Positions 1,596 through 56,297 of a stretch of DNA of 64,000 nucleotides are shown one piece after another. Origin of the DNA: a virus. Made by a program: the position numbers and the translations under genes. The notes beneath the pieces are model-generated. The model was not told where the DNA came from. It made no database searches and worked only from the letters and a program-made list of their open reading frames with translations. Position 1 is the first letter of the stretch. Every line of letters begins with the position of its first letter. The stretch is from IMG/VR virus record IMGVR_UViG_3300045988_132434, positions 25,638-89,637 of that record. The stretch is one strand, 5' to 3'.

Positions 1596-2783
1596 TTATT
1601 CGTCGAGCAACATAGGCATTTCAAGCGCCAACACCTTGGGTGCGGGTTCGTCAGCAGTAAATACTACGGCATGTGAGTTGTCAAGCAGACGCATGCGGAT
1701 GGTGTTTGACGGTATGGCAGAGATACACGTTCTGAACGAATCAGATTTCAGTCCGATCTTGAAACCATCTGTGCACGCAGCTTCTGACAGGAATACCTGG
1801 TCCTCGCCCGACTTGGCAAAGTCTGAGTCGCTGGCCGATACGGTAAGAAACATACCATTCTTCTCAACCTCGATAAGATTGCTGACACTGCTTGAGAAGA
1901 GACTGACACGACGCAGGATGCCCAGCATCTCCTTCTTGTCAAACACGACGTAATAAGGACTCGATTTTGGTATGACGCTGTTGTAGTTTGGATATTTACC
2001 CTCGATATGCTTACAGATCAGTTCGGTGTCACCCGACGAAAAACGGATGACGTGACCGTCATTTTCGATGTCAACCGTCTCACATCCGTCGAAAGCCGAC
2101 AGGATTTTGAGGTAGTTGCGATGAACTAACGTCTTGCGAGATTCTCCGCTCCGGAAGAAATCACTGCCGCCTTTCTGTTCGTCGTTGCTGTGGTTGCGCT
2201 TGTATAGTATATTGCCGTCTGATCCGACAAATACGACCTCTGATTTATCTTCTGCTACGTCAACACATAACACCGACATAACGGGACGCAACAAATCTTC
2301 GGCTAAGAAGTTTTGTGCCTGCGACAATACCTCGTCCACCACCACCATAGGCAACTGGATGTGGGTGCAGGCTGCATCAACGGACTTCATGAAGGTGAAT
2401 GCTTTTCCGTCTTCACAGGGCACCGATACCTTACCGGTCTTGACATGATCAACGTCACCGGTGCAATAGGTCATTTCTACCGACTGATTGTTTTTAGCAA
2501 AGTCGAAGGTAATGGTACAGTCGGGCAGCGTTGACAGAAAAGGAATGACGACATTTACCGACAAGGCAATGGGCGAGGTAAACTCTCCTTCTACGATAGT
2601 CAATGGTGCAGGTACGGTCAACTGCGACTCAACTGTTGACGAGGTGAAGAAAAACTTGTCGCGCTCCTTCATCGTCAGCAATACGTTGTTGAATATGGCA
2701 ACAACATTCTTGGTAGTCATACACTTTGCCGACTTCTGCAATGCCTCTCTCAGGAGTTTGGATGATTGTGCTTGTAATTTCAT
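1596..2783 (-). CDS. dnaN: DNA polymerase III beta subunit-like sliding clamp
   Basis: 395 aa, the typical DnaN length. It has the GKYPNYNSVIP block (DnaN G-x-FPDY-x-VIP type) and a C-terminal LEMPMLL end like the DnaN PMRL end. The layout resembles three domains. Confidence 0.85.
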   Translation of the reverse strand: MKLQAQSSKLLREALQKSAKCMTTKNVVAIFNNVLLTMKERDKFFFTSSTVESQLTVPAPLTIVEGEFTSPIALSVNVVIPFLSTLPDCTITFDFAKNNQSVEMTYCTGDVDHVKTGKVSVPCEDGKAFTFMKSVDAACTHIQLPMVVVDEVLSQAQNFLAEDLLRPVMSVLCVDVAEDKSEVVFVGSDGNILYKRNHSNDEQKGGSDFFRSGESRKTLVHRNYLKILSAFDGCETVDIENDGHVIRFSSGDTELICKHIEGKYPNYNSVIPKSSPYYVVFDKKEMLGILRRVSLFSSSVSNLIEVEKNGMFLTVSASDSDFAKSGEDQVFLSEAACTDGFKIGLKSDSFRTCISAIPSNTIRMRLLDNSHAVVFTADEPAPKVLALEMPMLLDE

Positions 2784-2814
2784 TATGTTTTTATTTTTTT
2801 GTTAGGTTATGATT

Positions 2815-3426
2815 TTAGAATGGCAGCGCATCATCATCTGCGCCGTAGGTGTTGCCGGCAAACGGATCATTACTTGCCTCTGCAGGGGCTACATAATTGG
2901 TGGCTGCTCCTGCGGTACCTACATTCGATGTAGCGTATGGTGATGGCTGTTGGGTAGCCTGTGGCTGGTAGAGCATGGCCAGACGTTTGCTCACGCGCTG
3001 ACGGATAGCCTTGAAGAGGTGGGTAGTCTCATCGGTAGCACTTTGATTCACAATATCGGGGTCGGTATCCTTAAACTGCTCCTTGACCTGTTCTACGAGC
3101 TTGGGAAATCTCTGTGCAAAAAGTTTGATGTAATCATTAGAGAATGATAACTGCATTTCGTGTGTCGGTACCGTGACGTTGGTATCACCACGTTCCTGTG
3201 CCGATCGGCGTACCGCATTTTTGTAGTTCTCATTCAGAGGCCAGATGTTCACGCGCATCTTAGCCAGTGTGCGGTCTTGTTTCTGTGGATGTTGTTCCAC
3301 TTTGATTTCGTTCAGATCTGCGGGTATGCAGACGTACACTCTCTCTGGGTTATTTTTGTCAATACCCTTAAACACCTGCGCTCCATTGAGCGAGAGCAGG
3401 TCGATGTTGCCATTGTAACTTGCCAT
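2815..3426 (-). CDS. SSB-like single-stranded-DNA-binding protein with a non-canonical N-domain
   Basis: 203 aa. A globular N-part is followed by a Q/P/A-rich linker and an acidic C-terminal tip, GADDDALPF. This is the architecture and tip of the bacterial SSB C-terminal tail (SSB-Ct, DDDIPF). The gene lies between the clamp and primase genes. Confidence 0.5.
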   Translation of the reverse strand: MASYNGNIDLLSLNGAQVFKGIDKNNPERVYVCIPADLNEIKVEQHPQKQDRTLAKMRVNIWPLNENYKNAVRRSAQERGDTNVTVPTHEMQLSFSNDYIKLFAQRFPKLVEQVKEQFKDTDPDIVNQSATDETTHLFKAIRQRVSKRLAMLYQPQATQQPSPYATSNVGTAGAATNYVAPAEASNDPFAGNTYGADDDALPF

Positions 3427-3462
3427 TTGTTTGTTGTTTTTATTGTTAGTTAAATTTACGTA

Positions 3463-4077
3463 TTATTTCACAAGTCTAAATTCGTACACAAACACAAACG
3501 GGTTCTTCTCCCATGTGCCTTTGCCGCATATCTTGTCTATCATCTTGGCATAAGCCTCGCGTGGAGTAGTCGATAACTCGAAACTTAACGCTCCGCGTCT
3601 GATATAGGAGAATCCCCACATGTGGCTATGCACATCGGGATATTTCTGTATGCCTTCTGCCAAGCAGTCGTTGTCGCTAATGTCCTGCAAACGCTCAAAA
3701 CGAATATCGGTAATGCGGATGCGATGGGGCATTTTGGAAGCAAAGACAAACATCTTATTATTGTAAGCCTTAAAACTACGCAAGCAAGACCGTTTCAATA
3801 AAACCATTTCATCAGATGTTTCCGAAGTAAAATCGAAAACGTCCTTGTATGGCTGTGCCACGGCAATATTATGTCCTATCCTAAACGCAGCTTCTTTGTG
3901 TATAACCTTTTTCAGGTGACAAAAACAACTACCAAAATCGCCTTTATAAAGCGATACATCCTTAGCAGTAATGTCGGGAGAATCGCAATATCCTGCTATA
4001 CGTCTGGTCTGCGTCTTGCGTCCTTCAAGTACGGCTTTTGTCAGTCCGTACATGTCGTTAAACATTATTTTTTGCAT
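3463..4077 (-). CDS. ASCH/PUA-like domain protein
   Basis: The N-terminus MQKIMFNDMYGLTKAVLEGRKTQTRR matches the ASCH signature (G-x-K-T-x-T-R-R). The start was moved to the internal Met because the upstream small ORF ends at 4098. Confidence 0.55.
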   Translation of the reverse strand: MQKIMFNDMYGLTKAVLEGRKTQTRRIAGYCDSPDITAKDVSLYKGDFGSCFCHLKKVIHKEAAFRIGHNIAVAQPYKDVFDFTSETSDEMVLLKRSCLRSFKAYNNKMFVFASKMPHRIRITDIRFERLQDISDNDCLAEGIQKYPDVHSHMWGFSYIRRGALSFELSTTPREAYAKMIDKICGKGTWEKNPFVFVYEFRLVK

Positions 4078-4097
4078 ACACTTGTTGTCTTTACTGT

Positions 4098-4337
4098 TTA
4101 ATATAATCTCGCCCTGCTGTCGCTCATATCGTCCATCGTGCGCACCTTGCGCCATTTCTTGATTCTATTTTTTTGCGCATATACCGTTGACAGGCTGAGA
4201 TACTTACTGCAGGCGAGGTGCATCGGACTGATACTGCCGCCAAACAGCGACGAACTCTGTTCTCTGCAACTACACTTCGCAAGGTCGAAAGAGATGCAGT
4301 TCTCGCACTTGTGGGGGGGGTAGGAAAATATTTGCAT
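4098..4337 (-). CDS. small Cys-rich hypothetical protein (79 aa)
   Basis: Contains CENC...CSC cysteines. The 5' end holds an 8-nt C tract (plus-strand G8 at 4313-4320), and a second frame (4124-4345) is also open across the tract. Confidence 0.3.
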   Translation of the reverse strand: MQIFSYPPHKCENCISFDLAKCSCREQSSSLFGGSISPMHLACSKYLSLSTVYAQKNRIKKWRKVRTMDDMSDSRARLY

Positions 4338-4366
4338 AACATCATAGCTTTATATTAAATGACCAA

Positions 4367-4774
4367 TTATAAAGATAGCGGATTGCCGTAATAATCTATC
4401 TCTTCAATATCATCCACCGAATAACTCTCGATGCAATACTCATCGAAGTATTTATAAGGACAGCAACCGATGCGATAGTCTTTAGAGGTTTTTCCCTCTG
4501 CCTCCATCTTGTCGTAATCAACATAGCGTCCTTTGCAGGGCGTGAACTTGTCGATATTTCTGGGAGTGAAGACCAATAGTATCTGTGTATTGACAATGCC
4601 TCGCAACCGACGCAAGGCTTTTCTTGCCTGTTTCACGTCGCCAATGCCGAAGCAGAATCCTTTTGCCGTGCTTGCTTTACCACGGATTTCCCCGTGGTCA
4701 GTTGTGTTGTGTAATGTCTTGCCTGCAAAAAACTTTATCAATTCGTCCACAGACATGTAGCGGAATAGTTTCAT
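4367..4774 (-). CDS. hypothetical protein (135 aa)
   Basis: Clean ORF downstream of the primase gene. No motif recognised. Confidence 0.5.
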   Translation of the reverse strand: MKLFRYMSVDELIKFFAGKTLHNTTDHGEIRGKASTAKGFCFGIGDVKQARKALRRLRGIVNTQILLVFTPRNIDKFTPCKGRYVDYDKMEAEGKTSKDYRIGCCPYKYFDEYCIESYSVDDIEEIDYYGNPLSL

Positions 4775-4812
4775 ACGCTATAAATATATTAGTTAAACAT
4801 TGATTTTCTTAA

Positions 4813-7800
4813 TCAGAACGGCAAATCTTCCTCGTGGATATTAGGAAGCGTTGGAGCCGTTGCAGCAGGTGGTGCCATGCGCCTACCCTGCTTTCTGATT
4901 TTGTTGTTCTCCCACCGTTCTTTTTCCTCTACTGTAAGCGTAATGATATGACCATCATCATCGCGGTATGGTAACGGATCGGGACGCTCTGCATATTCTT
5001 TGGCTATGCGCTTGAGCTCGCGGTAGTCCTTCGGTATCGCGTCCTTACCTGGGCGGTAAAAGAAAAAAACGTGCTTGGAGGTCTGCATATAGCGGATAAA
5101 CTTCGGCTCAATGGTGTTGTCATTCTCCCATTCACGACCAGTAAAGTATTCCTGCGTAACCCACGCCTGTAGCTTGAAGCACTTGCGCTGTTTGTCGCTC
5201 TCGTTCTCGAAGAGGTGTTTGGGGTTACACGTTATCGACATATTCTCGCAATAGTCGTATATCTTCTTCTTGAAGGTAGCTCGGCTATACTCCTTCGACT
5301 TGCCCTCGGAAGCATCCGCCCAGTCGCGCATAAACTCGTTGAACATGTCGTCAGTGCATATTGGCACTCCGTAAACCTCGTTGCGAGAGAAGAACCACTC
5401 GAAGTAGCGGACAATGCTCTCCGTGAGCTTCTGAACCATCTGACGGCGACGCACATTGCCTTGCGGTGCAATGGCAAAGGTATGGTAGCGCATCAGGAAC
5501 TGCACTGCCAAAGCGCAAAGGTAGATGGTCTGATTGCGGTCGGTGTCGGTGAGCTTTGCAGGGTCTGTATCAAAACGCTTCATAATGTCGGATGGTGATC
5601 GTGCCGGCTGTCGCTTTTGAGGATTCTCGCGAGCAAAGCGGTCGGAGAAACTAACCAGTGGAAAACGACCAATAGTAGAGGGGTCGTCGTCGCTCAACGG
5701 ACTGTTGCTTGTTATGACGTGCATCGGTGAGTCTTCCATCTTCAAACTGACGGGGTCGCCAAATTTCTTTTCAACCTTCGTACCTTTGGTAATCTTGTTG
5801 TAGAAGTATTTGAGCGGAAAGCTCTTCTGCTTGTCCTCCCAGTGTACAACACGATACTTGCCGGGATATATGAGCAAGTCGGAAAGACAGAACTTTGCAT
5901 CGACAATGGTAAGAAAGTCTTTCATATCCACACAGAACACATTGACTGCCGAACCAACTACGAGGTTTACCAATACCGATTTACCACTACCACCAGAGGC
6001 TTGCTTCTCGTCGGCAATATTATCCTCAAGAAGATAAGGGCAGACGTTCTGCATCCCTTCCCATGAACGATAACAAAGTCTGCCAATGCCCGAAAGCATA
6101 TTGGCGAAATGGGCGTTCATTACGGCTCGCTCGTCATCAGTAAGTTTCTCTTTGCTACGCAGCACGTCTCGCTCTCGCTCCCAGAGGGTGTTTGAGAATC
6201 CACGCACAATACGCAGGATAGGCCAAAGATCTTTTTCTTGCTGTCCTTGCCAGTTGACATCCCAACGATAGGTCTGTGCCCATTCCATAAGGTCGCCACG
6301 CATCTGCTTTATCTCGTCGTAGCTGAACACTGGCGACCCGTCCTCGTTCTGCATCTTCTCCTTTTTGTCTATCGCTTCCAGTCGGTCGCGATATTCCTGA
6401 CGCTCGGTAATTGTAAAAGGAGTCTTGAACGCTCTCATCGTGAAGTCATACGGCTTCTTGGCGAGCGAGGGGATGAAGAAGTTGATGTCGTCATACGACA
6501 CCGTGCGGATGCTGTCGGGTGTTATCTTCAATGCCACATTATTGAAGTAGAAATACTCTGTATTGGCATCAAAAGCATCGGCAAAGTTTATCACCATGCT
6601 CTGCAAACCTCCAGCAGACTTTTCTGTGAAGGCCTTATCCACCATATTGGCGCAGTCGGACATCAAGCGTCGCTCGTTGTCGCTATGCCACCATGTCTGT
6701 TCTATATATTCCAAAAGCATTGTCTTTGCTGCCTGAATGATACTCTTTGCGTCGATATACTCTACGAAGCATTTGTTCAGGTGGATATACTGTCCCACGA
6801 GGTCGGTGCTCTCGGGGTCTATCATGCGGTAATATCCGTGTGCGGTCATAAAGAGCCACAATCGCGTAGGCGATACCTTGCAGGTAGGCAGTTTGGGCTT
6901 TCCACTTCGAGGGTCACGCGGATATTCTATCTCGAATGGCTCCGTGTTCCTGGCTCCACGCAATCGGGAGTAAAGCGGCAGACGAACATCATGGTCGAAC
7001 TGGAAGTTCTCTTCTGCGTTCATGGTATATGTCAGCATATAGTCGCGCACACTTCGGGGTGAGCAGCCATATAGCCATTGCCAGCGTCGGCAATAACGTG
7101 AGCGGAAACCTTCGGGCAGCATGGCATAATACAATGAACTGAACTTGCTGCATATCGCTCCGCAGTCGCGCTGTGAGGCAATGTCGTTGGGATAGAGGAT
7201 AATGACACGCTCGGCAAAACGGTTCATCTTCTGATATTGCACAGCACTGAAATCAAGATTTTCCCGTTTCCACTCGCCACGCTCTATGTACCAGAAGTTT
7301 CTCCGTCCGATGGAGAACGCCACATGATACCAACAGAAGTCTTGAAAATGCTGGTCTTCTGCCTTGTCAAGGCGCAAGGAACGCATAGCATAATACACGC
7401 TCAATGCGTCTTCGGGTGTACGACAAAAAACGATATTACGGGCTTTTATCTCGGCGGTGGGGATTGTGTATTTCTCCTCTTTGAAAGTTCCTTTCCCGTT
7501 ACCTTCTTTATCTTCTCTCTCTACCCAAATCTTCTTATCTTCAGTGTATTTCTCTTCGGGATCGTACTTAGCGATGGCAGCATGAACGGCAGTATTATCG
7601 CTCTTGCGATTATCCATTGCATGAACAAACACGTTGTCGCCCATGAGCCACTTGCTCACCTTCCTCACACTGTGCTCCTCGGCGGTAGAGAACACTATCG
7701 GTTCGCTCCCTGCCATGGCCGGACGGAAGAAGCAACCGTAGGAGTTCTGCGGTCCTACCTCTTGCGAGGCGAAGCACACAAACAGCGGATTCCACGGCGT

Positions 7801-49875: not shown

Positions 49876-50041
49876 TCACAGCTCCACCAATACCTTTATC
49901 TCTCTATCCCCCCCCTCCTTGCGTATGCAGCGTAGGCGATATTCCTTTTGCGGAATATACGCGGCGGCTCTGCTCAAACATGCGGTCGTAGGGCGGAGTC
50001 TGCATCATGCCGAGGACGAGGGTGTGTGTGGTGTCAGTCAT
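49876..50041 (-). CDS. TRD-like mini-ORF T14 (frame broken at a G8 tract)
   Basis: As given: MTDTTHTLVLGMMQTPPYDRMFEQSRRVYSAKGISPTLHTQGGGG, then a stop at 49904. Compare the M.HhaI TRD block RIYSTRGIAITLSAYGGG. With one G fewer the frame continues as DREIKVLVEL to 49876. Confidence 0.55.
49908..49915. repeat. homopolymer C8 (G8 on the coding strand)
   Basis: Counted in the sequence. Out of frame relative to the conserved C-terminal end of T14. Confidence 0.95.
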
Positions 50042-50093
50042 CGCCAGGCTTGATTTCTTCTGTTTTCATTGTTTCTATTGTTTTATGTTTGTT

Positions 50094-50261
50094 TTAACGA
50101 TTCAATAGTGACATTAGTTCCACTGCTTTTTCCTTGTCGGAAAAACCTTTGATGTTTACCCATTTGCCGAAGATACTGCCTCCGACATATTTCTGAACCA
50201 TCCAAACGGTCACGGGTATGCAACCGTTGTAGACTTCCATTGGAACAATTCTTAGCTTCAT
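50094..50261 (-). CDS. small hypothetical protein S2 (55 aa, not TRD-like)
   Basis: MKLRIVPMEVYNGCIPVTVWMVQKYVGG... Below the track cutoff. Confidence 0.4.
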   Translation of the reverse strand: MKLRIVPMEVYNGCIPVTVWMVQKYVGGSIFGKWVNIKGFSDKEKAVELMSLLNR

Positions 50262-50264
50262 ATC

Positions 50265-50450
50265 TTATTCAAATTTATATACTATATGCGGTGTGGTGTT
50301 GCCCAGTCCGTCGCGAGGGTCGGCAATACCTCTCCCGACCATTGTTGTCACGGCATTGGCTATCTGCTTGCGCGGTCGGCTCTTTACGAGACCCTTGCCG
50401 TCCTTGCCGCTGCGTACCCATCCGATGTAATACTTGTCAATCATATTCAT
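50265..50450 (-). CDS. TRD-like mini-ORF T13
   Basis: MNMIDKYYIGWVRSGKDGKGLVKSRPRKQIANAVTTMVGRGIADPRDGLGNTTPHIVYKFE. Confidence 0.45.
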   Translation of the reverse strand: MNMIDKYYIGWVRSGKDGKGLVKSRPRKQIANAVTTMVGRGIADPRDGLGNTTPHIVYKFE

Positions 50451-50454
50451 ACTC

Positions 50455-50628
50455 TTATAGTGGAATGAGGACGTTTGCCACATTTCCCGATATTATCGTG
50501 TATGCTATCCCCCCCACATTGTTTATTACCAATTCGCTCACTCCTCGCTTGTCGGGAGTGTCGCGATAGAAGCGGATGGTGTCGTCATCGCGCCACTTCA
50601 TCCTTATAAGGTCTTTACGGTTACTCAT
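50455..50628 (-). CDS. TRD-like mini-ORF T12 (G7 tract in frame)
   Basis: MSNRKDLIRMKWRDDDTIRFYRDTPDKRGVSELVINNVGGIAYTIISGNVANVLIPL. Confidence 0.45.
   Translation of the reverse strand: MSNRKDLIRMKWRDDDTIRFYRDTPDKRGVSELVINNVGGIAYTIISGNVANVLIPL
50509..50515. repeat. homopolymer C7
   Basis: Encodes V-G-G in T12. In frame. Confidence 0.95.
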
Positions 50629-50763
50629 ATTCTATCAATATTGCGGGTGCTTTGATTTTTGAACTTGTACCTTGTATGATATTGCCTGCTCCCTCCTTGT
50701 GATAATGCGTAAGAATGGTAGCACATACTTGGGGGGCGAATTTAAGATTTGCTGTCTAATCAT
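50621..50763 (-). CDS. TRD-like mini-ORF T11 (own ATG out of frame at a C6 tract)
   Basis: The conserved frame reads KFAPQVCATILTHYHKEGAGNIIQGTSSKIKAPAILIEYE. The ATG at 50763 joins this frame only if the coding-strand C tract is 7 rather than 6. The conserved frame is also contiguous with T10 through one TAG. Confidence 0.5.
50731..50736. repeat. homopolymer G6 (C6 on the coding strand)
   Basis: Counted. Separates the T11 ATG from the conserved frame. Confidence 0.95.
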
Positions 50764-50899
50764 ATTCTATCAATACAATGGTGTGCTGTCCGTGCTCATC
50801 GTAAAGTCCTGCCCATCCGTCGTAGCGTGCGGACAGGGCGGTGGAGTACCCCCGACGTGGGCAGAGGTGCGAGAGGCGTTGCACGAATGGGATTTTCAT
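50756..50899 (-). CDS. TRD-like mini-ORF T10
   Basis: MKIPFVQRLSHLCPRRGYSTALSARYDGWAGLYDEHGQHTIVLIEYD. Confidence 0.5.
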   Translation of the reverse strand: MKIPFVQRLSHLCPRRGYSTALSARYDGWAGLYDEHGQHTIVLIEYD

Positions 50900-51069
50900 T
50901 ACCAACAATCAGGATTAAGATCTCTACCATTAACACCTTCAATATCAATGGCGTTTTTGTAACTGTAAAAACAAACATCTACAATCTCGTCGTCATTGAC
51001 TGTTACTTCCAATTCGCCATGTTCTTTACGCAAAAGCTCAAGGCGGTTTATAAGTTCGTTTATATTCAT
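50899..51069 (-). CDS. small hypothetical protein S1 (56 aa, not TRD-like)
   Basis: MNINELINRLELLRKEHGELEVTVNDDEIVDVCFYSYKNAIDIEGVNGRDLNPDCW. Confidence 0.45.
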   Translation of the reverse strand: MNINELINRLELLRKEHGELEVTVNDDEIVDVCFYSYKNAIDIEGVNGRDLNPDCW

Positions 51070-51078
51070 GTTTTTTCT

Positions 51079-51231
51079 TTATAAATATTCAACATATACC
51101 ATATTATCCTTGCCTACTGACGTAAGCGTATTTGTAATGCCCAACACGTTTATCTCCATGCGCTGAATGTTGGGGCAATCGTCACCATTCAAAGGGCGGC
51201 CACGGAAGGCTGCAATTCTTATTCGTAACAT
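51079..51231 (-). CDS. TRD-like mini-ORF T9
   Basis: MLRIRIAAFRGRPLNGDDCPNIQRMEINVLGITNTLTSVGKDNMVYVEYL. It has the A-x-RGR ... Q-R-x-E ... (T/S)N(T/S)LT(S/T)V-x-KDN pattern that I recall from many phage C5-MTase TRDs. Confidence 0.6.
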   Translation of the reverse strand: MLRIRIAAFRGRPLNGDDCPNIQRMEINVLGITNTLTSVGKDNMVYVEYL

Positions 51232-51395
51232 ATTGCTATCAGATTGTCTGTAGTGAGAAACGTACCTATACATTGCATCATACGTCCCTGCCGCAGATGC
51301 CATTCCTTATCGCGAAAATCGTTAGTGCCAGTTCTGCGACGCACGGCTTTTGCGTGTTCGGTTCGAGCTTCGTGTATCAGATAAATGTTACGCAT
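51219..51395 (-). CDS. TRD-like mini-ORF T8
   Basis: MRNIYLIHEARTEHAKAVRRRTGTNDFRDKEWHLRQGRMMQCIGTFLTTDNLIAICYE. It overlaps T7 and T9 by a few codons. Confidence 0.5.
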   Translation of the reverse strand: MRNIYLIHEARTEHAKAVRRRTGTNDFRDKEWHLRQGRMMQCIGTFLTTDNLIAICYE

Positions 51396-51556
51396 AGGAG
51401 GTTGTCTTTTGTTACTGTGCTGATGGTGTTACTCCACGGCCATGGGCTGGGACGATGCAGTTTGTCTTGGTATTTGCCCCCCCGGTCGCCATGCTCGCGG
51501 CGGTAGGCTTTCGCCTCTTCGGTGCGGTAGTGGACGAGGATGGATTTGTCAATCAT
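51377..51556 (-). CDS. TRD-like mini-ORF T7 (G7 tract in frame)
   Basis: MIDKSILVHYRTEEAKAYRREHGDRGGKYQDKLHRPSPWPWSNTISTVTKDNLLCVTFI. Confidence 0.55.
   Translation of the reverse strand: MIDKSILVHYRTEEAKAYRREHGDRGGKYQDKLHRPSPWPWSNTISTVTKDNLLCVTFI
51477..51483. repeat. homopolymer C7
   Basis: Encodes R-G-G in T7. In frame. Confidence 0.95.
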
Positions 51557-51701
51557 ACTCTATGAGAATTTTTGGTTTATCCACATCGTGACCCTTACCC
51601 CCCCCGGCTATGCACAAGGCTATGCCGTGTGGCGACACGATGATGCCGTTCTGCGAGGGGCTGTAGGAGCCGAGGATGATGGGGCGATGGTTGTTATTCA
51701 T
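51549..51701 (-). CDS. TRD-like mini-ORF T6 (G8 tract in frame)
   Basis: MNNNHRPIILGSYSPSQNGIIVSPHGIALCIAGGGKGHDVDKPKILIEYD. Confidence 0.55.
   Translation of the reverse strand: MNNNHRPIILGSYSPSQNGIIVSPHGIALCIAGGGKGHDVDKPKILIEYD
51598..51605. repeat. homopolymer C8
   Basis: Encodes G-G-G in T6. In frame. Confidence 0.95.
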
Positions 51702-51840
51702 ATATCACGATTACGCCTGTGGCTTTGAAGTTGGCTCCGTCAAGCGAAAGGTCAAGCACATTCGCTGCTCCCATTTTGAAATATTGGGATTTGATAGTGC
51801 GCGATGTGCCGTCGGATTCGGTGTTGAAAGGGAGTGTCAT
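51694..51840 (-). CDS. TRD-like mini-ORF T5
   Basis: MTLPFNTESDGTSRTIKSQYFKMGAANVLDLSLDGANFKATGVIVIYE. Confidence 0.45.
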   Translation of the reverse strand: MTLPFNTESDGTSRTIKSQYFKMGAANVLDLSLDGANFKATGVIVIYE

Positions 51841-52027
51841 AATTCTACTGCTACAAAGAACACGTCGCTGCAATCAGTGCGCGACATGATGGTTATTGCT
51901 ATGCCGTGAAATGCTCCGTTGAAACGTTCTGCGCTGAACATCGAGGCAGGGCAGGTGAGCAACCTACCCCCCCAATCATATCAGCTATGATGCGGATTAC
52001 ACGGTCGGGCGGATTGTCAGTTTTCAT
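51837..52027 (-). CDS. TRD-like mini-ORF T4 (frame broken at a G7 tract)
   Basis: The ATG overlaps the MTase stop (ATGA). As given it reads MKTDNPPDRVIRIIADMIGGVGCSPALP... with a stop at 51899. With one extra G it reads ...MIGGGRLLTCPASMFSAERFNGAFHGIAITIMSRTDCSDVFFVAVEL and ends at 51837 in an ATGA overlap with T5. Confidence 0.5.
51967..51973. repeat. homopolymer C7
   Basis: Out of frame relative to the conserved downstream part of T4. Confidence 0.95.
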
Positions 52028-53364
52028 TCTTTCTTCCTCTCCATATTCTCCTTGAACAATTCCTCGAAACCTTCGCAAGGGAATGTATGATACTCGCTGA
52101 AACTTGCGAAATCACTGTTCAATACGTCTCGCTCGTTCTCTATACAATTTTTCAGTTCGTCCAATTCTCTTTCCCATCCGTTGAGAGCGTTCATGCGTAA
52201 CGTGAGCCACGTCTTGAGGAACATCGCTGCCTCGTGTGTCGGTGGCAGGTCGAATTGAATGAATAGGGCGCTGTCAGAGTCGTTCGCCTTGAGGAACTTA
52301 CTAACGGCATCGTCTTTGAGGAAATAGCGGTCGGCTACTTCTTCTTCCAGTACATCCTCCAGTCGGGTCTTCAGTTCGAAGGGAGCGGGAAATTTATAGT
52401 CGAAGGCCACGTCACGGCGCATGGATATGCAGAACACGCGGTCGCGGTTCTGCGGCACACCGTAGTTCTTGGCGTTAAGGCGAGCCCAACGTGAGACGTA
52501 GCCGAGCGAGGAGAGCTTGTCGAGCCACTTCTGGAAGTCGGGCATGAACTTCTTGCTTACCAATGCCGCCACGTTCTCCTGCAAGAGATATTTCGGGCGC
52601 AACACCTCCACGGCATCTGCCACACGCCAAAGCAGTGCGCTTCGGGTGTTGCTGCCCTCCTGCAAGCCCATCTGCTTGCCAGCTTGCGATATGTCCTGAC
52701 AGGGCGAGGAGTAGGTGAAGAGGTCAACCTCGCGCCCTTCAAGCGAGCGTTTTACCTTGTGCCAGTCAATCTTGGTGATGTCGCCAAGAGCACAGTCGGC
52801 AAACTGCGGAAATACGAGATTGTGCATCTGGCAGGCGTATTTGTCAATGTCGCTCCATCCCTTGCACGTCCATCGGAAGCCGGGATGCCACTCCTTCAGC
52901 ACGTCGGCTGCCATAAGTTGCGAGTCGTAGCCGGAGAACGTGGTCAGAAAAATCTTTTCTTTACCAGAATCGTCTAAGTTCTTCGGCATATCGGGCAGAT
53001 AGTCGCCGATGTCGGTGAAGAGTGAGAGTTGCTTATACTTGCGTTTATTCGGCTGCGGATAGAACAGTGACTCGTAGATGTGAGCCAACACGTCCACCAC
53101 GATTGAGTTTCCTGCCTGCTTGTATTGCTGTGAGGCAGAAATCAGCATCACGTAATGCTTGTTCGGGATCTTGTTAAACAGTTTTTTGAAAAAACATTTG
53201 CCCAAAACGCTCTTTATGCGTTCTTTGGCCGATGCCACCGTCATTTGCATAATGGCAATTACGTTGTCGCGAACGCCCATCAGTCGGAAACACTCTTTTG
53301 GTGTGAGCTTGCGGATGGCATAACTCTTGATGGTACGGTCGGTGAAATTTAGTTTTGTGATCAT
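52024..53364 (-). CDS. cytosine-5 DNA methyltransferase core, circularly permuted (IX-X-I-IV-VI-VIII)
   Basis: Motif order along the protein: RKLTPKECFRLMG (IX, aa 18-30), QAGNSIVV (X, about aa 83), TTFSGYDS (I, about aa 141), SSPCQDIS (IV), LLQENV (VI), VPQNRDRVF (VIII). A helical ~110-aa tail follows, with no recognisable TRD. Confidence 0.85.
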   Translation of the reverse strand: MITKLNFTDRTIKSYAIRKLTPKECFRLMGVRDNVIAIMQMTVASAKERIKSVLGKCFFKKLFNKIPNKHYVMLISASQQYKQAGNSIVVDVLAHIYESLFYPQPNKRKYKQLSLFTDIGDYLPDMPKNLDDSGKEKIFLTTFSGYDSQLMAADVLKEWHPGFRWTCKGWSDIDKYACQMHNLVFPQFADCALGDITKIDWHKVKRSLEGREVDLFTYSSPCQDISQAGKQMGLQEGSNTRSALLWRVADAVEVLRPKYLLQENVAALVSKKFMPDFQKWLDKLSSLGYVSRWARLNAKNYGVPQNRDRVFCISMRRDVAFDYKFPAPFELKTRLEDVLEEEVADRYFLKDDAVSKFLKANDSDSALFIQFDLPPTHEAAMFLKTWLTLRMNALNGWERELDELKNCIENERDVLNSDFASFSEYHTFPCEGFEELFKENMERKKE

Positions 53365-53376
53365 ATTGTCTTTGCT

Positions 53377-53530
53377 TTATTCGTATTCTATCATTACCCC
53401 TGCATCGTTCACGTTAGCTTTCAGACATCGGCTCAGTCCGATTAGGCTTCCATGGTTGAACTCGGCAGTTACTTGCGTAAATACCCCCCCCGACTTTCGG
53501 GATGTGGTAGTCTATTGTGATGTTATTCAT
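53377..53530 (-). CDS. TRD-like mini-ORF T3 (frame broken at a G8 tract)
   Basis: MNNITIDYHIPKVGG is followed, in the conserved frame, by VFTQVTAEFNHGSLIGLSRCLKANVNDAGVMIEYE. This requires G7 rather than G8. The conserved frame is in frame with the MTase ATG across TAA plus 4 codons. Confidence 0.5.
53484..53491. repeat. homopolymer C8
   Basis: Out of frame relative to the conserved end of T3. Confidence 0.95.
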
Positions 53531-53654
53531 ATTCTTCAATCAGAAATACATTATATTGCCATAAACTTGTTGAAATGGTCGGGCAAACGTCAGTGCCTAA
53601 TCTACCTCCGTCGTTGTTGCCACGAGGGTATTGGTAGAGGTCGTGGTTAGTCAT
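53523..53654 (-). CDS. TRD-like mini-ORF T2
   Basis: MTNHDLYQYPRGNNDGGRLGTDVCPTISTSLWQYNVFLIEEYE. It has the PRG-N-x-GG ... PT(I/L)(S/T)(T/S)S ... N block. Confidence 0.55.
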   Translation of the reverse strand: MTNHDLYQYPRGNNDGGRLGTDVCPTISTSLWQYNVFLIEEYE

Positions 53655-53656
53655 AT

Positions 53657-53950
53657 TCAATCCTTTTCAATCTCCATTTCCCATTTCTTTTCATCGTGAG
53701 AGGAATAGACGGTATAGGGACAATTTTCTTTGTCGAGGATATTCTGTGCTTCGTCCAATATATCTCTTGTATAGAAACACCGACGCATAAGATACGCCAA
53801 AGCCTCAAACTGACCACGAGTAAGAAAGACCTCCTGCTCGCCGCAAGTAATACCTACATTATCAGTAATGGTAGAATAGAACAGCTTTACGTCCTCTTCC
53901 TTTCCTGTGTCCTCGTTCTTTACGATTATCTTTTCTGTATTGTAACTCAT
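53657..53950 (-). CDS. hypothetical protein (97 aa)
   Basis: Clean ORF. Confidence 0.45.
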   Translation of the reverse strand: MSYNTEKIIVKNEDTGKEEDVKLFYSTITDNVGITCGEQEVFLTRGQFEALAYLMRRCFYTRDILDEAQNILDKENCPYTVYSSHDEKKWEMEIEKD

Positions 53951-53991
53951 AATTTATTTCTCTTTTCATAAATCTTATTGTTTTTCACATT

Positions 53992-54363
53992 CTATTCAGA
54001 TACTCTTTTCACTGTCTTTAAATTACAGTTGGGAAAATCCATAACGTGTTTGAACTCATACGACACAGCATCTTCATAATGCGTTACATCACCATCAGTC
54101 TTTATTACGTTGATATAATCTTTATTCAAAGATGAAACAACCTGCTTGACCTCCGAGGCTCTGTGTAAATCGCATCCACCACCTTTGGTAAATACACACA
54201 AGAAATACCCATCACAATTCTGATAGTCTATTTCTCTATCATTTTTCACCTCTTTCTTCATTTTTCGTGCTGTCCACCAAATGTAAGTCATAAACAAAAT
54301 TGTTAAGACAAACGCAAACAACATTGATGCGAGCCAGAGTCGCCAATCATTCGTTATAATCAT
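53992..54363 (-). CDS. membrane-anchored hypothetical protein
   Basis: N-terminal TM segment, WRLWLASMLFAFVLTILFMTYIWW. Confidence 0.45.
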   Translation of the reverse strand: MIITNDWRLWLASMLFAFVLTILFMTYIWWTARKMKKEVKNDREIDYQNCDGYFLCVFTKGGGCDLHRASEVKQVVSSLNKDYINVIKTDGDVTHYEDAVSYEFKHVMDFPNCNLKTVKRVSE

Positions 54364-54378
54364 AATTTATTTCTCCTT

Positions 54379-54706
54379 TTATAATTCAACAAACACGCAC
54401 ACCCCTCCGCTTGCTGCGGTCAGAGCGTTCACCAACTTACCCCCCCCCAACCGTCCTGCTGCGCCTTAGAGCCGAGGAAGGATAGCTAAGGTCGGCGGCT
54501 CCAGGACAAGGGCAGTCGGCATAGCCCTGCTCGGTGGCTTGGCGTATGCGGAGGAACGTCTCGCCCTTGCGGTCCACAATCTGAAGGAAGGGTCGGTCAG
54601 AGGTGGAGTAGATACGGTAGAGCGAACCGTCGGGATAGCGCCCATACAGCTTGCCGTCCTTGGTGATGGTGCCACGCTTGTAGCGGGGCGTGTAAGGGTT
54701 ATTCAT
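54379..54706 (-). CDS. TRD-like mini-ORF T1 (frame broken at a G9 tract)
   Basis: MNNPYTPRYKRGTITKDGKLYGRYPDGSLYRIYSTSDRPFLQIVDRKGETFLRIRQATEQGYADCPCPGAADLSYPSSALRRSRTVGGG, then a stop at 54437. With G8 it continues as KLVNALTAASGGVCVFVEL to 54379. It has the RIR-x-AT-x-x-GY ... S-x-x-RR-x-R-V/T-G pattern. Confidence 0.55.
54440..54448. repeat. homopolymer C9
   Basis: The longest tract. As given it truncates T1. Confidence 0.95.
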
Positions 54707-55256
54707 CAATGGGCTTATCTTCTTGTGCTTCCTCAGCTTTCGGGTTATCATAACAATACGCACACAACACACACTTTTTACCGGACGCGTCCACCTTGAT
54801 AAGATGCCGGCAACTCTGGCATACCCCATAGCCGACCTTTACAGGATTACCATTCGGCAAAGAATCTCGGTGGGTGCAAACGTCTCCTATCTTCAAGAAC
54901 TCCGAATTGTCAAAACGAGCTATATGCTTAAACAATTCTTCTTTGTGAAGATCACACTCATCAGCATGGGTTTTTGCTTCATTACGTTCAAGTTGAAGCT
55001 GAATACATTCTCGTTTTAACTGTTCATTGTCCTTCTCCAACATGTCGCAACGGTCGCGCAACTGTTGCATATCGCCGAGCGTCTGCTTTGACGGGTTTTC
55101 ATCCTTGCGCTTCTCTTTGCCGTTCAACTGATGAACTACTTTGTTATAATCGTCCATGAGCTGAGACACACGCTGCTCCAGCTCAATGTTCTCTGCCTTT
55201 AAGTCGGCTACTATATAGGAAAGAGCCAACATGCGTTTGTTTTCTTCTGTTTTCAT
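54699..55256 (-). CDS. coiled-coil protein with a C-terminal Cys4 cluster
   Basis: Heptad-rich N-half. The C-terminus reads CQSCRHLIKVDASGKKCVLCAYC. Confidence 0.5.
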   Translation of the reverse strand: MKTEENKRMLALSYIVADLKAENIELEQRVSQLMDDYNKVVHQLNGKEKRKDENPSKQTLGDMQQLRDRCDMLEKDNEQLKRECIQLQLERNEAKTHADECDLHKEELFKHIARFDNSEFLKIGDVCTHRDSLPNGNPVKVGYGVCQSCRHLIKVDASGKKCVLCAYCYDNPKAEEAQEDKPIDE

Positions 55257-55829: not shown

Positions 55830-56297
55830 CTATCCATTTTTGAGGTTCAACTTCTCCTGCCATTCTGGGTCGTGTATATCACCGACAATCTCAAAGTCCT
55901 CAAGTTTCTGTTGCGTGATTTCGTCAGAGATGCCGTCAGAAATGCCACGCACAGCGGATTTCGGGTTTTTGACACAGGTAAGCAGAAACATCGCCTCTTC
56001 ATCACTCCACTCTATAATGCCGAAGTAATTATCACGCGCACCATCCTCCATGCGACTGAATGGGTATTCGTCCGAGCGAAGAATATCGCCCTCATAAATT
56101 TCCTTACCGTTCTTGTCGAGGAAGCCGGTGAACTGGCAGACGGTGCGAGGGTCAACCTTGTAGGGGATGTTTCTATTCAACATGCTTTCCTTTTGTCTAT
56201 CCTCGATAATGTATGTATTACCATTCTCCTTGTAGAAGAATCCACAAGTCCATTCTTGATTATCAAGACATTTAGCCTTAAACTTAATTGTTCTCAT
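55830..56297 (-). CDS. YopX-family protein
   Basis: MRTIKFKAK..., QFTGFLDKNGKEIYEGDIL and IVGDIHDPEW match the YopX pattern (F-R-x-W, TGL-DKNGK-IYEGD, GNIHDNPEL). Confidence 0.75.
   Translation of the reverse strand: MRTIKFKAKCLDNQEWTCGFFYKENGNTYIIEDRQKESMLNRNIPYKVDPRTVCQFTGFLDKNGKEIYEGDILRSDEYPFSRMEDGARDNYFGIIEWSDEEAMFLLTCVKNPKSAVRGISDGISDEITQQKLEDFEIVGDIHDPEWQEKLNLKNG

What the first reader, a model, noticed from the sequence alone, without database searches (positions are those of the whole stretch)
52024..53364. The C5-methyltransferase core is circularly permuted (motifs IX-X precede I-VIII)
**Motif order read from the 446-aa translation**
- RKLTPKECFRLMG (IX), about aa 18
- YKQAGNSIVVDVL (X), about aa 83
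- FLTTFSGYDS (I)
- SSPCQDIS (IV)
- LLQENV (VI)
- VPQNRDRVF (VIII)
- RYFLKDDAVSKFLK, then a helical tail.

Canonical enzymes run I to VIII, then TRD, then IX and X. The permutation point therefore falls exactly where the TRD should be. An insertion of about 45 aa also sits between motifs IX and X. Permuted C5-MTases are known but rare (M.BssHII is the precedent I recall). Here the permutation coincides with the loss or externalisation of the TRD.
Basis: partly seen in the sequence, partly recalled or inferred. Interest (0 to 1): 0.65.

Follow-up and report, generated by a model that had tools for sequence, protein, structure and literature searches.

The report
Permuted methylase with separate, switchable TRD genes
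A gut phage encodes a cytosine DNA methylase whose catalytic core is rearranged and has no DNA-reading module. About fourteen tiny neighbouring genes each encode one such module, and eight of them carry slippery runs of G or C that turn them on or off, probably to vary which DNA sequences the phage protects from host restriction.

Summary
The 446-aa ORF lies on the minus strand at 53364..52024. It is a C5-cytosine methyltransferase with motif order IX-X-I-IV-VI-VIII and no target-recognition domain (TRD). Permuted C5-MTases are already known, so that part is not new.

The core sits inside a 4.8-kb array (54706..49876) of 14 mini-ORFs of 42-108 aa, three upstream and eleven downstream:
- Each resembles a single TRD module.
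- They match, one to one, the tandem TRDs of a split multispecific phage methylase (Dulem virus 40) and the cis TRDs of related permuted enzymes.
- They are under purifying selection (pN/pS 0.08-0.31; core 0.12).
- Most abut or overlap their neighbours by ATG/stop overlaps.
- Which cassettes are present differs in nearly every related genome.

Eight of the 14 carry a G7-G9 or C6 run. Twelve of the 14 GGGGGGG matches in the 64-kb window lie here. Contigs with zero substitutions over 3.9-5.4 kb differ only in run length, which switches single TRD genes between intact and truncated.

Best reading: a modular multispecific methylase whose TRDs act as separate subunits (inferred, not shown) and are individually phase-variable. 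I found no description of this architecture.

The parts
52024..53364 (-). Permuted, TRD-less C5-MTase core (446 aa). Layout: N-terminal beta-hairpin, IX, variable insertion, X, disordered linker (aa 102-136), I-VIII, conserved strand plus helix (aa 366-385), hypervariable helical tail.
   Evidence: pN/pS 0.12.
54379..54706 (-). U0: TRD mini-gene (108 aa when intact; RIRQATEQGY...RRSRTVGGGK..TAAS..VFVEL type). OFF in the window: G9 at 54440-54448 runs straight into TAA. Its ATG overlaps the stop of the upstream 185-aa ORF by 8 nt.
   Evidence: Matches Dulem beta 139-156. Both halves are under purifying selection in different frames (pN/pS 0.08 and 0.16). It is intact (G8) in the otherwise identical contigs L086 and L088.
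53523..53654 (-). U1: TRD mini-gene (43 aa), intact.
   Evidence: Matches Dulem beta 162-196, E 3e-8. pN/pS 0.31. Found in 55-57 related loci.
53377..53530 (-). U2: TRD mini-gene (51 aa when intact). OFF in the window: G8 at 53484-53491. The reading frame is intact at G7 or G10.
   Evidence: L086 and L088 (G10) encode the intact 51-aa product; the window, L087 and L090 encode a 38-aa truncation.
51837..52027 (-). D1: TRD mini-gene (63 aa when intact). OFF in the window: G7 at 51967-51973. Its ATG overlaps the core's TGA (ATGA).
   Evidence: Resembles the cis N-terminal TRD of permuted P0177 (E 1e-3).
51694..51840 (-). D2: TRD mini-gene (48 aa), intact. ATGA overlap with the D1 ON-frame stop.
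   Evidence: pN/pS 0.22. Paralogous to D8 (E 2e-5). Junction.
51549..51701 (-). D3: TRD mini-gene (50 aa), ON (G8 at 51598-51605, in frame). The most conserved cassette.
   Evidence: Found in 71 of 77 loci at median 94% aa identity. pN/pS 0.11. 147 database clusters, all stand-alone at 33-87 aa; the five 45-aa clusters inspected go out of frame after the G run.
51377..51556 (-). D4: TRD mini-gene (59 aa), ON (G7 at 51477-51483).
   Evidence: The SNTISTVTKDNLL motif matches a TRD of permuted P0130. Phase data. The orthologous run is G9 versus G7 in near-identical L002 and L003.
51219..51395 (-). D5: TRD mini-gene (58 aa), a paralogue of D4.
   Evidence: pN/pS 0.19. D5 versus D4 E 2e-5.
51079..51231 (-). 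D6: TRD mini-gene (50 aa).
   Evidence: Matches Dulem beta 94-135. pN/pS 0.15.
50756..50899 (-). D7: TRD mini-gene (47 aa).
   Evidence: pN/pS 0.12. Matches a mini-ORF next to the distant permuted core in L091 (E 5e-7).
50621..50763 (-). D8: TRD mini-gene (47 aa when intact). OFF in the window: C6 on the coding strand at 50731-50736. C7 gives MIRQQILNSPPQVCATILTHYHK...
   Evidence: Matches Dulem beta 11-40. C7, C6 and C5 occur in the near-identical L001, L002 and L003, and C8 in L086.
50455..50628 (-). D9: TRD mini-gene (57 aa), ON (G7 at 50509-50515).
   Evidence: Matches Dulem beta 231-284. pN/pS 0.17. Phase data.
50265..50450 (-). D10: TRD mini-gene (61 aa).
   Evidence: 42% identical over 50 aa to the cis N-terminal TRD of permuted P0145 (pairwise E 3e-10). 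pN/pS 0.29.
49876..50041 (-). D11: TRD mini-gene (54 aa when intact). OFF in the window: G8 at 49908-49915 runs into TAG.
   Evidence: tblastn hits fall only in TRD regions of phage C5-MTases (phi3T, SPbeta, H2, S. thermophilus phage 5093), E 0.04-0.8 against 2.3 Gb. Matches Dulem beta 66-91. Also.
50094..51069 (-). Two small non-TRD genes interspersed in the array: N1 at 51069..50899 and N2 at 50261..50094. Not part of the methylase.
   Evidence: No TRD similarity. Present in only 7 and 29-33 loci respectively.

Best explanation
The locus encodes a modular, multispecific phage C5-cytosine methyltransferase built from separate parts.

(1) Shown. One polypeptide carries the whole catalytic fold in permuted order (IX-X-linker-I-VIII) and has no TRD.

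(2) Shown. Fourteen adjacent mini-genes, three upstream and eleven downstream, each encode one TRD-sized module (42-108 aa). They are homologous to the tandem TRDs of multispecific or split phage C5-MTases. They are kept as individual ORFs by purifying selection and are chained by overlapping stop/start codons (ATGA, ATGAnTRA), which suggests translational coupling.

(3) Inferred. Each TRD mini-protein docks non-covalently on the core at the position a cis TRD would occupy. It would do so next to the invariant N-terminal hairpin that precedes motif IX and the invariant strand/helix at aa 366-385, perhaps by adding its conserved C-terminal hydrophobic strand (..ILIEY) to that small sheet. The TRD that is bound would decide the sequence methylated, as HsdS does in Type I systems.

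(4) Hypermutability shown, adaptive role inferred. Eight TRD genes carry a G7-G9 or C6 run at Gly or Pro codons. The run changes length faster than any other site, so single specificities switch on or off independently. Splitting the TRDs into separate genes is what makes independent switching possible.

(5) Inferred. The result is a phage population with mixed methylation patterns. That would hedge between hosts (probably Prevotella) with different restriction systems and methylation-dependent nucleases.
For: Permutation and absence of a TRD:
- for sequence. The AF2 model has pLDDT 85.8, and the tail (aa 377-442) is all-helical and does not look like a TRD. Foldseek result.

TRD homology of the mini-ORFs:
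- Seven window mini-ORFs hit seven different, non-overlapping TRD modules of the Dulem virus 40 beta subunit.
- D10, D1 and D4 match cis TRDs of related permuted enzymes P0145, P0177 and P0130.
- D11 hits only TRD regions of phi3T, SPbeta, H2 and other phage MTases.

Real, separate genes:
- pN/pS is 0.08-0.31 in the TRD frame against roughly 0.7-6 in the off frames. The core is 0.12.
- Gaps between consecutive genes are mostly -19 to +12 nt, and every TRD except D8 has its ATG at the junction.
- The D3 family forms 147 database clusters, all 33-87 aa and never part of a long MTase.
- Cassette presence and absence differs in nearly every locus, while ORF boundaries are kept.
- The same layout, a permuted core with TRD mini-ORFs, occurs in a lineage only 35-40% identical (L091).

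Switches:
- GGGGGGG has 14 matches against 2.03 expected, and 12 of them lie in the array.
- Across loci, runs of 5 or fewer are in phase in 255 of 260 cases. Runs of 6 or more are in phase in 33 of 90.
- Contigs with 0 substitutions over 3.9-5.4 kb differ only at the U0, U2 and D8 runs. In two independent assemblies this restores intact U0 (108 aa) and U2 (51 aa).
- The same pattern holds for L001-L003.

Plausibility of docking:
- Natural (M.AquI) and artificial C5-MTase fragments split between VIII and the TRD complement each other efficiently (PMC5944983; PMC3404938).
- Multispecific phage enzymes use tandem TRDs (PMC8936443). That those TRDs are interchangeable is my own knowledge.
Against: - There is no direct evidence that the mini-ORFs are translated, or that a 45-60 aa TRD can bind the core and confer specificity in trans.
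- I know of no characterised C5-MTase that has a TRD-only subunit.
The proposed docking surface is therefore a guess from conservation and secondary structure.
- TRD homology rests on short alignments with modest E-values in small databases. Pfam and PDB sequence searches with single mini-ORFs found nothing.
- For several tracts most genomes are in the OFF frame (U2: 1 ON against 13 OFF). That fits relaxed selection or rescue by frameshifting as well as it fits bet-hedging.
- Tract lengths come from assembly consensus sequences, not from reads.
Confidence: 0.6

Rival explanations
1. Cis assembly by recoding. Ribosomes join mini-ORFs to each other or to the core by programmed frameshifting, stop read-through or hopping, for example at the ATGA junctions or G runs. 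The active enzyme would then be a conventional single-chain multispecific MTase (TRDs-IX-X-I-VIII or ...VIII-tail-TRDs).
For: - In the window, the stop that ends U2 is in frame with the core ORF, and D8 follows D7 in frame after a TAG.
- D1's ATG overlaps the core stop.
- G runs could be slippery.
- Related enzymes do have cis N-terminal TRDs (P0177, P0226, P0145, P0130), and a rare D3-D6 fusion exists (P0361).
Against: - The in-frame relation of U2 to the core is not conserved. The upstream frames differ in L001-L008.
- Junctions shift frame in both directions with no common slippery motif.
- Every cassette except D8 has its own ATG exactly at the junction, whichever neighbour it has in rearranged arrays.
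- D8 orthologues have their own in-frame ATG.
- The large ORFs of the window are intact under code 11, so there is no sign of stop-codon reassignment.
Confidence: 0.12
2. Relics. The mini-ORFs are decaying fragments of a once contiguous multi-TRD gene. The core works alone, either non-specifically or with specificity supplied by its helical tail, or it is itself inactive. The G-run variation is neutral mutational noise.
For: - Five of the 14 TRD ORFs are frameshifted in the window.
- Long tracts are in frame in only about one third of cases, close to random.
- The core's tail is confidently folded and varies between alleles, so it could carry a function of its own.
Against: - pN/pS is 0.08-0.31, as low as the core, and that includes both halves on either side of each frameshift in their respective frames.
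- D3 is more conserved than the core (94% against 65-92%).
- ORF boundaries and overlaps are maintained across lineages as distant as 35-40% core identity.
- Intact copies reappear in otherwise identical genomes.
- Catalytic motifs of the core are invariant.
Confidence: 0.08
3. Silent cassette store. The mini-ORFs are donor cassettes that recombination moves into an expression site fused to the core, as in gene-conversion or shufflon-type specificity switching in Type I hsdS loci.
For: - The array is mosaic, with a different cassette content in almost every genome and some order changes.
- Short conserved junction sequences (..ATAGAATATGA..) flank many cassettes.
Against: - None of more than 200 core homologues or loci in this family carries a TRD in the core ORF.
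- All cassettes are in direct orientation.
- No inverted repeats or recombinase gene were noticed in the array, though this was not searched exhaustively.
- Silent cassettes would not need their own ATG, coupling overlaps, or purifying selection on start-proximal residues.
Confidence: 0.04
4. The tract-length differences are sequencing or assembly artefacts at homopolymers rather than biological switching.
For: Homopolymers are error-prone, and only consensus contigs were examined.
Against: - L086 (SPAdes) and L088 (MEGAHIT, a different sample) agree with each other at both U0 (G8) and U2 (G10), and differ from the window, L087 and L090.
- Changes of +/-2 nt and lengths from 3 to 11 are seen.
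- OFF variants of D3 form database clusters with up to 30 member sequences.
- The one other long G/C run in the window (4313-4320) was not compared between contigs.
Confidence: 0.05

Closest known systems
Natural circularly permuted C5-MTases of 'Type H' (M.BssHII, M.Alw26I, M2.Eco31I, M.Esp3I, M2.BsaI, plus 22 found in REBASE; PMC5944983)
   Same: Motifs IX-X precede I-VIII, and the chain break lies in the variable region between VIII and IX. Metagenomic relatives of the window protein at 42-50% identity (P0130, P0145, P0176, P0177, P0226) have this arrangement.
   Different: In Type H enzymes the TRD is fused in front of motif IX. Here the chain starts 17 residues before motif IX with only a short hairpin, and no TRD is present anywhere in the polypeptide.
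Multispecific Bacillus phage C5-MTases (M.SPRI, M.Phi3TI, M.H2I, SPbeta MtbP, M.phiBssHII)
   Same: Phage-encoded, with several TRD modules of about 40-60 aa encoded side by side, each presumably giving one specificity. D11 resembles a TRD of phi3T, SPbeta and H2.
   Different: Those TRDs are tandem domains of one polypeptide between VIII and IX in a colinear enzyme. Here each TRD is its own gene, the array lies on both sides of the core, and the core is permuted.
Split C5-MTases: M.AquI (alpha I-VIII / beta TRD-IX-X), M.EcoHK31I (motif IX in trans), and the unannotated alpha/beta multispecific pair of Dulem virus 40 (PP511379.1)
   Same: The enzyme is assembled from separately translated pieces. 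Dulem alpha and the C-terminus of Dulem beta are the closest annotated relatives of the two halves of the window core, and Dulem beta carries 7 tandem TRDs that correspond to window mini-ORFs.
   Different: In those systems the TRD stays covalently attached to conserved motifs. Here IX-X has been fused to I-VIII and the TRDs alone are detached, one per gene.
Type I R-M specificity subunits (HsdS) and phase-variable hsdS or Type III mod genes (phasevarions)
   Same: Works alike: a catalytic methylase takes its sequence specificity from exchangeable or switchable recognition modules, and simple-sequence repeats switch the specificities.
   Different: A different enzyme class (N6-adenine, an unrelated TRD fold) and cellular rather than viral. 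This is an analogy only, not homology.
Hypermutable polyG tracts in Campylobacter phages (receptor-binding proteins)
   Same: A phage genome uses G homopolymers inside coding regions to create phenotypic heterogeneity. This precedent is from my own knowledge; a text search retrieved Campylobacter and phage papers that mention polyG tracts, but I opened none of them.
   Different: The tracts here sit in methylase specificity modules, not tail proteins. Eight independent switches act on one enzyme system.

Membership tests
C5-cytosine DNA methyltransferase (PF00145) | Catalytic and cofactor motifs I (FxGxG-like), IV (PCQ), VI (ENV), VIII (QxRxR), IX and X are present | tested here: met
   FSGYDS, SSPCQDIS, LLQENV, VPQNRDRVF, RKLTPKECFRLMG and AGNSIVVDVL are all present. 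PF00145 scores 6e-50. The motifs are invariant in 42 homologues. Top Foldseek hits are M.MpeI and M.HhaI, E about 1e-15.
C5-cytosine DNA methyltransferase (PF00145) | Colinear order I to X with the TRD between VIII and IX | tested here: not met
   The order is IX-X-I-VIII. After VIII comes only the YFLKDDAVSKFL helix, one strand and a helical tail.
C5-cytosine DNA methyltransferase (PF00145) | Produces 5-methylcytosine at a defined sequence | not testable with these tools
   Needs expression followed by bisulfite, EM-seq or nanopore analysis.
Type H circularly permuted C5-MTases (M.BssHII group) | Motifs IX-X are N-terminal to I-VIII in one polypeptide | tested here: met
Type H circularly permuted C5-MTases (M.BssHII group) | The TRD is retained in cis at the new N-terminus, ahead of motif IX | tested here: not met
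   Only 17 residues (MITKLNFTDRTIKSYAI) precede RKLTP. The start is conserved in more than 200 homologues. Relatives P0177, P0145 and P0130 do carry cis TRDs.
Multispecific phage C5-MTases | Several TRD modules encoded in tandem | tested here: met
   14 TRD-like modules in the window. At least 10 further families occur in relatives.
Multispecific phage C5-MTases | The TRDs are part of the same polypeptide as the catalytic motifs | tested here: not met
   Each module has its own ATG and stop, in varying frames. D3 homologues are always 33-87 aa.
Multispecific phage C5-MTases | Several distinct target sequences are methylated | not testable with these tools
   No methylome data are available.
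Simple-sequence-repeat phase-variable (contingency) genes | A homopolymer tract inside the reading frame, whose length sets the frame | tested here: met
   G7-G9 or C6 in 8 TRD ORFs. Both flanks are under selection in their own frames.
Simple-sequence-repeat phase-variable (contingency) genes | Tract length varies between otherwise identical genomes | tested here: met
   0 substitutions over 3.9-5.4 kb, yet the U0, U2 and D8 tracts differ. L001-L003 show the same.
Simple-sequence-repeat phase-variable (contingency) genes | High-frequency, reversible switching within a clonal population | not testable with these tools
   Needs read-level or single-plaque data.

The most novel reading that the evidence does not exclude
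C5-cytosine methyltransferases can take their sequence specificity from free-standing TRD subunits of about 50 aa, a Type I-like 'M + S' organisation never described for this enzyme class. This phage lineage would then run a combinatorial, phase-variable methylome: one permuted core, a pan-repertoire of at least 24 plug-in TRD genes, and up to eight independent homopolymer switches per genome.
Probability: 0.5. Interest if true: 0.9.

Novelty: new variant of a known kind. Interest (0 to 1): 0.8.

Why it matters
If the TRD mini-proteins work in trans, this would be the first C5-MTase with exchangeable specificity subunits. That would bear on three things.

- **How TRDs dock on the catalytic domain.** This has been open since the multispecific phage enzymes were described. 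To my knowledge no structure of one has been solved.
- **Engineering.** It would give a natural template for programmable 5mC writers in which a 50-aa peptide sets the target.
- **Phage ecology.** It would be a phage counter-defence that is itself phase-variable, letting an abundant human-gut phage lineage (probably of Prevotella) hedge between hosts with different restriction and methylation-dependent systems.

Even if the trans model fails, the locus matters for annotation. Gene callers currently see an orphan 'DNA methylase' and a string of 'hypothetical proteins'. In fact they are one system, with hypermutable sites that will confound variant calling.

Tried and rejected
- **Stop read-through joining U2 to the core.** In the window the stop is in frame, but the upstream frame is not conserved in relatives. 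Rejected.
- **Highly conserved 'ORFs' ending ..VFVEL as RNA genes.** ARAGORN and Rfam found nothing in the whole window. They turned out to be the out-of-frame second halves of TRD genes.
- **Pfam scan of ten mini-ORFs**, and phmmer against PDB with D3 and D11. No useful hits; single TRDs are too short and variable.
- **tblastn of D4 against phages.** No match.
- **Bacillus phages Deep Blue and BCP01 as permuted relatives.** The single tblastn piece spanning IX-X and I-VIII comes from three tandem full-length MTase genes abutting in frame. They are not permuted, but they show how a permutant could arise.
- **First AF2 run with a shallow alignment** (78-100% identity). It gave pLDDT 45 and was discarded. 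Adding distant permuted homologues raised pLDDT to 85.8.
- **Sigma-70 promoter and terminator scan.** Counts were near chance and uninformative.
- **Megablast against INPHARED phages.** No match, and PHROGs recognised only 3 of 10 large proteins. The phage lineage is uncharacterised.
- **Six literature searches** found no description of stand-alone TRD genes or of phage methylase specificity switched by homopolymers.
Full report
**1. The observation**

The finding's coordinates hold a 446-aa ORF on the minus strand, 53364..52024.

- Pfam PF00145 matches at 6e-50 in three stretches.
- Against M.MpeI (4dkj), the I-VIII block aligns to chain 112-281, while query 15-64 aligns to chain 333-382.
- The clearest demonstration comes from the split methylase of Dulem virus 40. 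Core aa 15-119 equal the last 88 residues of its beta subunit (E 3e-19). Core aa 139-358 equal alpha residues 10-228 (E 8e-55).
- An AlphaFold2 model built with distant permuted homologues in the alignment is confident (pLDDT 85.8, pTM 0.80).
- Foldseek finds M.MpeI and M.HhaI at E about 1e-15. Being a sequential aligner, it covers only about 221-227 of the 327 residues of M.HhaI.

The permutation is real and conserved. More than 120 full-length homologues (78-100% identity) sit on 88-103 kb contigs. Eighty IMG/VR loci (65-92% identity) all begin MITKLNF....

**2. What is already known**

Natural permuted C5-MTases are on record: M.BssHII, M.Alw26I, M2.Eco31I, M.Esp3I and M2.BsaI, plus 22 more found in REBASE. 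[quoted passage not shown]

A search of 1.84 billion representative proteins gave 27,715 hits, mostly canonical enzymes. About a dozen representatives at 42-50% identity are also permuted:
- P0130, P0145, P0176, P0177 and P0226 carry one or two TRDs in front of motif IX (Type H).
- P0141, P0148, P0234 and P0121 start, like the window protein, just before motif IX ('MIAQIN..R.FDIRKL' against 'MITKLNFTDRTIKSYAIRKL').

The window protein therefore belongs to a TRD-less subset of a wider permuted phage family.

**3. The surroundings: an array of TRD mini-genes**

Reading all three minus-strand frames around the gene shows small ORFs packed head to tail from 54706 to 49876. Three lie upstream of the core (U0-U2) and eleven downstream (D1-D11). 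Four unrelated small genes are interspersed.

Their sequences look like single TRD modules, for example ..GISPTLHTQGGG.., ..SNTISTVTKDNLL.., ..RIRQATEQGY...RRSRTVGGGK... Most end in a hydrophobic strand (ILIEYD, VMIEYE, VFVEL).

Evidence for TRD homology:
- Seven of them align to seven different, consecutive TRD modules of the 373-aa Dulem beta subunit. The pairs are D8~11-40, D11~66-91, D6~94-135, U0~139-156, U1~162-196 (E 3e-8), U2~199-227 and D9~231-284.
- D10 is 42% identical over 50 aa to the cis N-terminal TRD of permuted P0145 (E 3e-10).
- D1 matches the cis TRD of P0177, and D4 matches a TRD of P0130.
- tblastn hits of D11 against 2.3 Gb of phage DNA fall only inside C5-MTase genes (phi3T, SPbeta, H2 and others).
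- Pfam and PDB sequence searches with single mini-ORFs were negative, as expected for short, variable TRDs.

**4. They are genes, not debris**

- Pooled comparisons with orthologues in the 83 related loci give pN/pS of 0.08-0.31 in the TRD frame. The two off frames give about 0.7-6, and the core gives 0.12.
- D3 occurs in 71 of 77 loci at a median 94% amino-acid identity, higher than the core.
- Consecutive genes are mostly separated by -19 to +12 nt. The next ATG is embedded in the previous gene's last codons (ATGA, TATGATTGA, TATGAATAA). This also explains the recurrent ..Y-E/D-stop endings.
- A search of 5.8 billion proteins with D3 returned 147 clusters. All are 33-87 aa, none has a Pfam domain, and none lies inside a longer methylase.
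- Cassette content differs in almost every locus, with about 70 different orders among 84 loci. At least 10 further TRD-like families absent from the window occur in relatives.
- A lineage whose core is only 35-40% identical (P0177, locus L091) also has four TRD-like mini-ORFs directly upstream of its core, which additionally carries one TRD in cis.

**5. Homopolymer switches**

Eleven G/C runs of 6 or more occur in the 64-kb window, and eight of them lie in this 4.8-kb array. GGGGGGG has 14 matches against 2.03 expected from shuffles, and 12 of them are in the array on the coding strand. Each run lies in a TRD gene, at Gly-Gly-Gly codons or, in D8, at Pro codons.

State in the window:
- U0 (G9), U2 (G8), D1 (G7), D8 (C6) and D11 (G8) are out of frame.
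- D3 (G8), D4 (G7) and D9 (G7) are in frame.

The sequence on both sides of every frameshift is under purifying selection in its own frame. Selection therefore acts on the full-length product.

Across related loci:
- Runs of 5 or fewer leave the two halves in phase in 255 of 260 cases.
- Runs of 6 or more are in phase in only 33 of 90 cases, close to the one third expected from random slippage.

The decisive comparison uses five contigs from other samples that encode the identical core. They show zero substitutions against the window over 3.1-5.4 kb. L089 and L090 are identical to the window throughout, while L086, L087 and L088 (3.9-5.4 kb compared) differ only in run length:
- U0 is G9 in the window, G8 in L086 and L088, and G7 in L087.
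- U2 is G8 in the window and G10 in L086 and L088.
- D8 is C6 in the window and C8 in L086.

L086 and L088 come from different samples and different assemblers. Both encode intact U0 (108 aa) and U2 (51 aa) where the window encodes truncations. L001-L003, which share one core protein, likewise differ internally only by homopolymer indels. Of the 45-aa clusters in the D3 search, the five whose sequences were read (P0445, P0449, P0450, P0453, P0454) go out of frame after the G run.

**6. How it most likely works**

*Shown:*
- A permuted catalytic core without a TRD.
- A conserved, selected, tightly coupled array of single-TRD genes.
- Hypermutable tracts that toggle individual TRD genes.

*Inferred:*
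- The TRD mini-proteins bind the core non-covalently where a cis TRD would sit, and so set its target sequence.

Supporting considerations:
- TRDs of the same types occur in cis immediately before the homologous N-terminus in related enzymes.
- The core's first 36 residues, and the segment ALF.QFDLPPTHEAAMFLKT (aa 366-385), are almost invariant, whereas the rest of the tail is hypervariable.
- In the model these residues form a hairpin (2-6, 11-15) and a strand plus helix (366-393). They are candidates for a docking sheet that the TRDs' conserved C-terminal strand could extend.
- C5-MTases tolerate being split at the VIII/TRD boundary (M.AquI and engineered fragments; PMC5944983, PMC3404938).
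- Multispecific phage enzymes use interchangeable tandem TRDs (PMC8936443).

Separate genes also give a rationale for the architecture. In a single multi-TRD polypeptide, one frameshift would remove every downstream TRD together with motifs IX-X. With one gene per TRD, each specificity can be switched alone.

The likely biological role is bet-hedging protection of phage DNA against varied host restriction systems and methylation-dependent nucleases. Two database names point to Prevotella as host.

**7. Rivals**

- *Recoding into a single chain.* Not excluded, but disfavoured. The frame relations and junctions are heterogeneous. The in-frame U2/core stop is not conserved. Every cassette except D8 has its own ATG, and D8 orthologues have theirs too.
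- *Decay.* Contradicted by the selection data and by intact alleles in clonal relatives.
- *A silent-cassette recombination store.* There is no expression site in more than 200 homologues.
- *Assembly artefact.* Unlikely, given concordant independent assemblies.

**8. Limits**

- No expression, binding or methylome data exist.
- A complex prediction could not be run, and model coordinates could not be inspected.
- TRD homology rests on short alignments.
- Tract lengths are consensus values.
- I found no publication describing free-standing TRD genes for a C5-MTase, or homopolymer-switched methylase specificity in a phage. The searchable library is incomplete, however.

**9. Verdict**

Taken as a whole, the locus is a new variant of the multispecific phage C5-methyltransferase: a permuted TRD-less core, 14 stand-alone TRD genes and eight homopolymer switches. 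It makes a sharp, directly testable prediction (trans-acting TRD subunits) and is worth experimental follow-up.

Noticed in passing
window 4313-4320 (C8 on the minus/coding strand), ORFs 4345..4124 and 4337..4098: This is the only other long G/C run in the window. It lies near the start of a small minus-strand gene that is split between two frames (MMLCKYFPTPP | HKCENCISFDLAKCSCREQ...). It may be another homopolymer-switched gene, unrelated to the methylase.
   Followed up: partly
window 53657-54363 and 50094-51069: Four small non-TRD genes are interspersed in the TRD array: orf123 (a membrane protein), orf97, N1 and N2. Each is present in only 5-33 of the related loci. They look like moron-type insertions of unknown function.
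   Followed up: partly
core protein aa 31-75 and aa 386-446 (window about 53274..53140 and 52209..52027): Two segments of the core are allelic among homologues that are otherwise 80-90% identical. The IX-X insertion has two forms, and the helical tail after PPTHEAAMFLKT has at least three unrelated forms. This looks like recombination of modules within the core gene.
   Followed up: partly
L085 (Dulem virus 40, PP511379.1) 2974-4914: Two adjacent CDSs annotated as separate cytosine methylases are really the alpha (I-VIII) and beta (seven tandem TRDs plus IX-X) subunits of a split multispecific C5-MTase. This architecture is not noted in the record.
   Followed up: yes
protein P0361 (80 aa), from a related contig: A natural in-frame fusion of a D3-type and a D6-type TRD (..KPKILISCGRFRQRMEINVLGITNTLTS..). 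Cassettes are therefore occasionally joined by deletion.
   Followed up: no
window 54699-55256 and 55830-56297; L001-L003: A 185-aa coiled-coil, Cys-rich ORF is coupled to U0 by the same ATGAATAA overlap. Upstream lie several YopX-domain paralogues (PF09643), up to three per locus in relatives.
   Followed up: no
whole window: The phage lineage is essentially uncharacterised. There is no megablast match for the array region in INPHARED, and only 3 of 10 large proteins hit a PHROG (head maturation protease, NAD-dependent ligase, sliding clamp). Contigs are 88-103 kb from human gut samples, including Hadza. Two database names attach relatives to Prevotella sp. MAGs.
   Followed up: partly
L084 (Bacillus phage Deep Blue) 1936-4885: Three C5-MTase genes stand in tandem, with the first two abutting in the same frame (3195/3196). 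This is the kind of arrangement from which an IX-X/I-VIII fusion could arise by deletion.
   Followed up: partly
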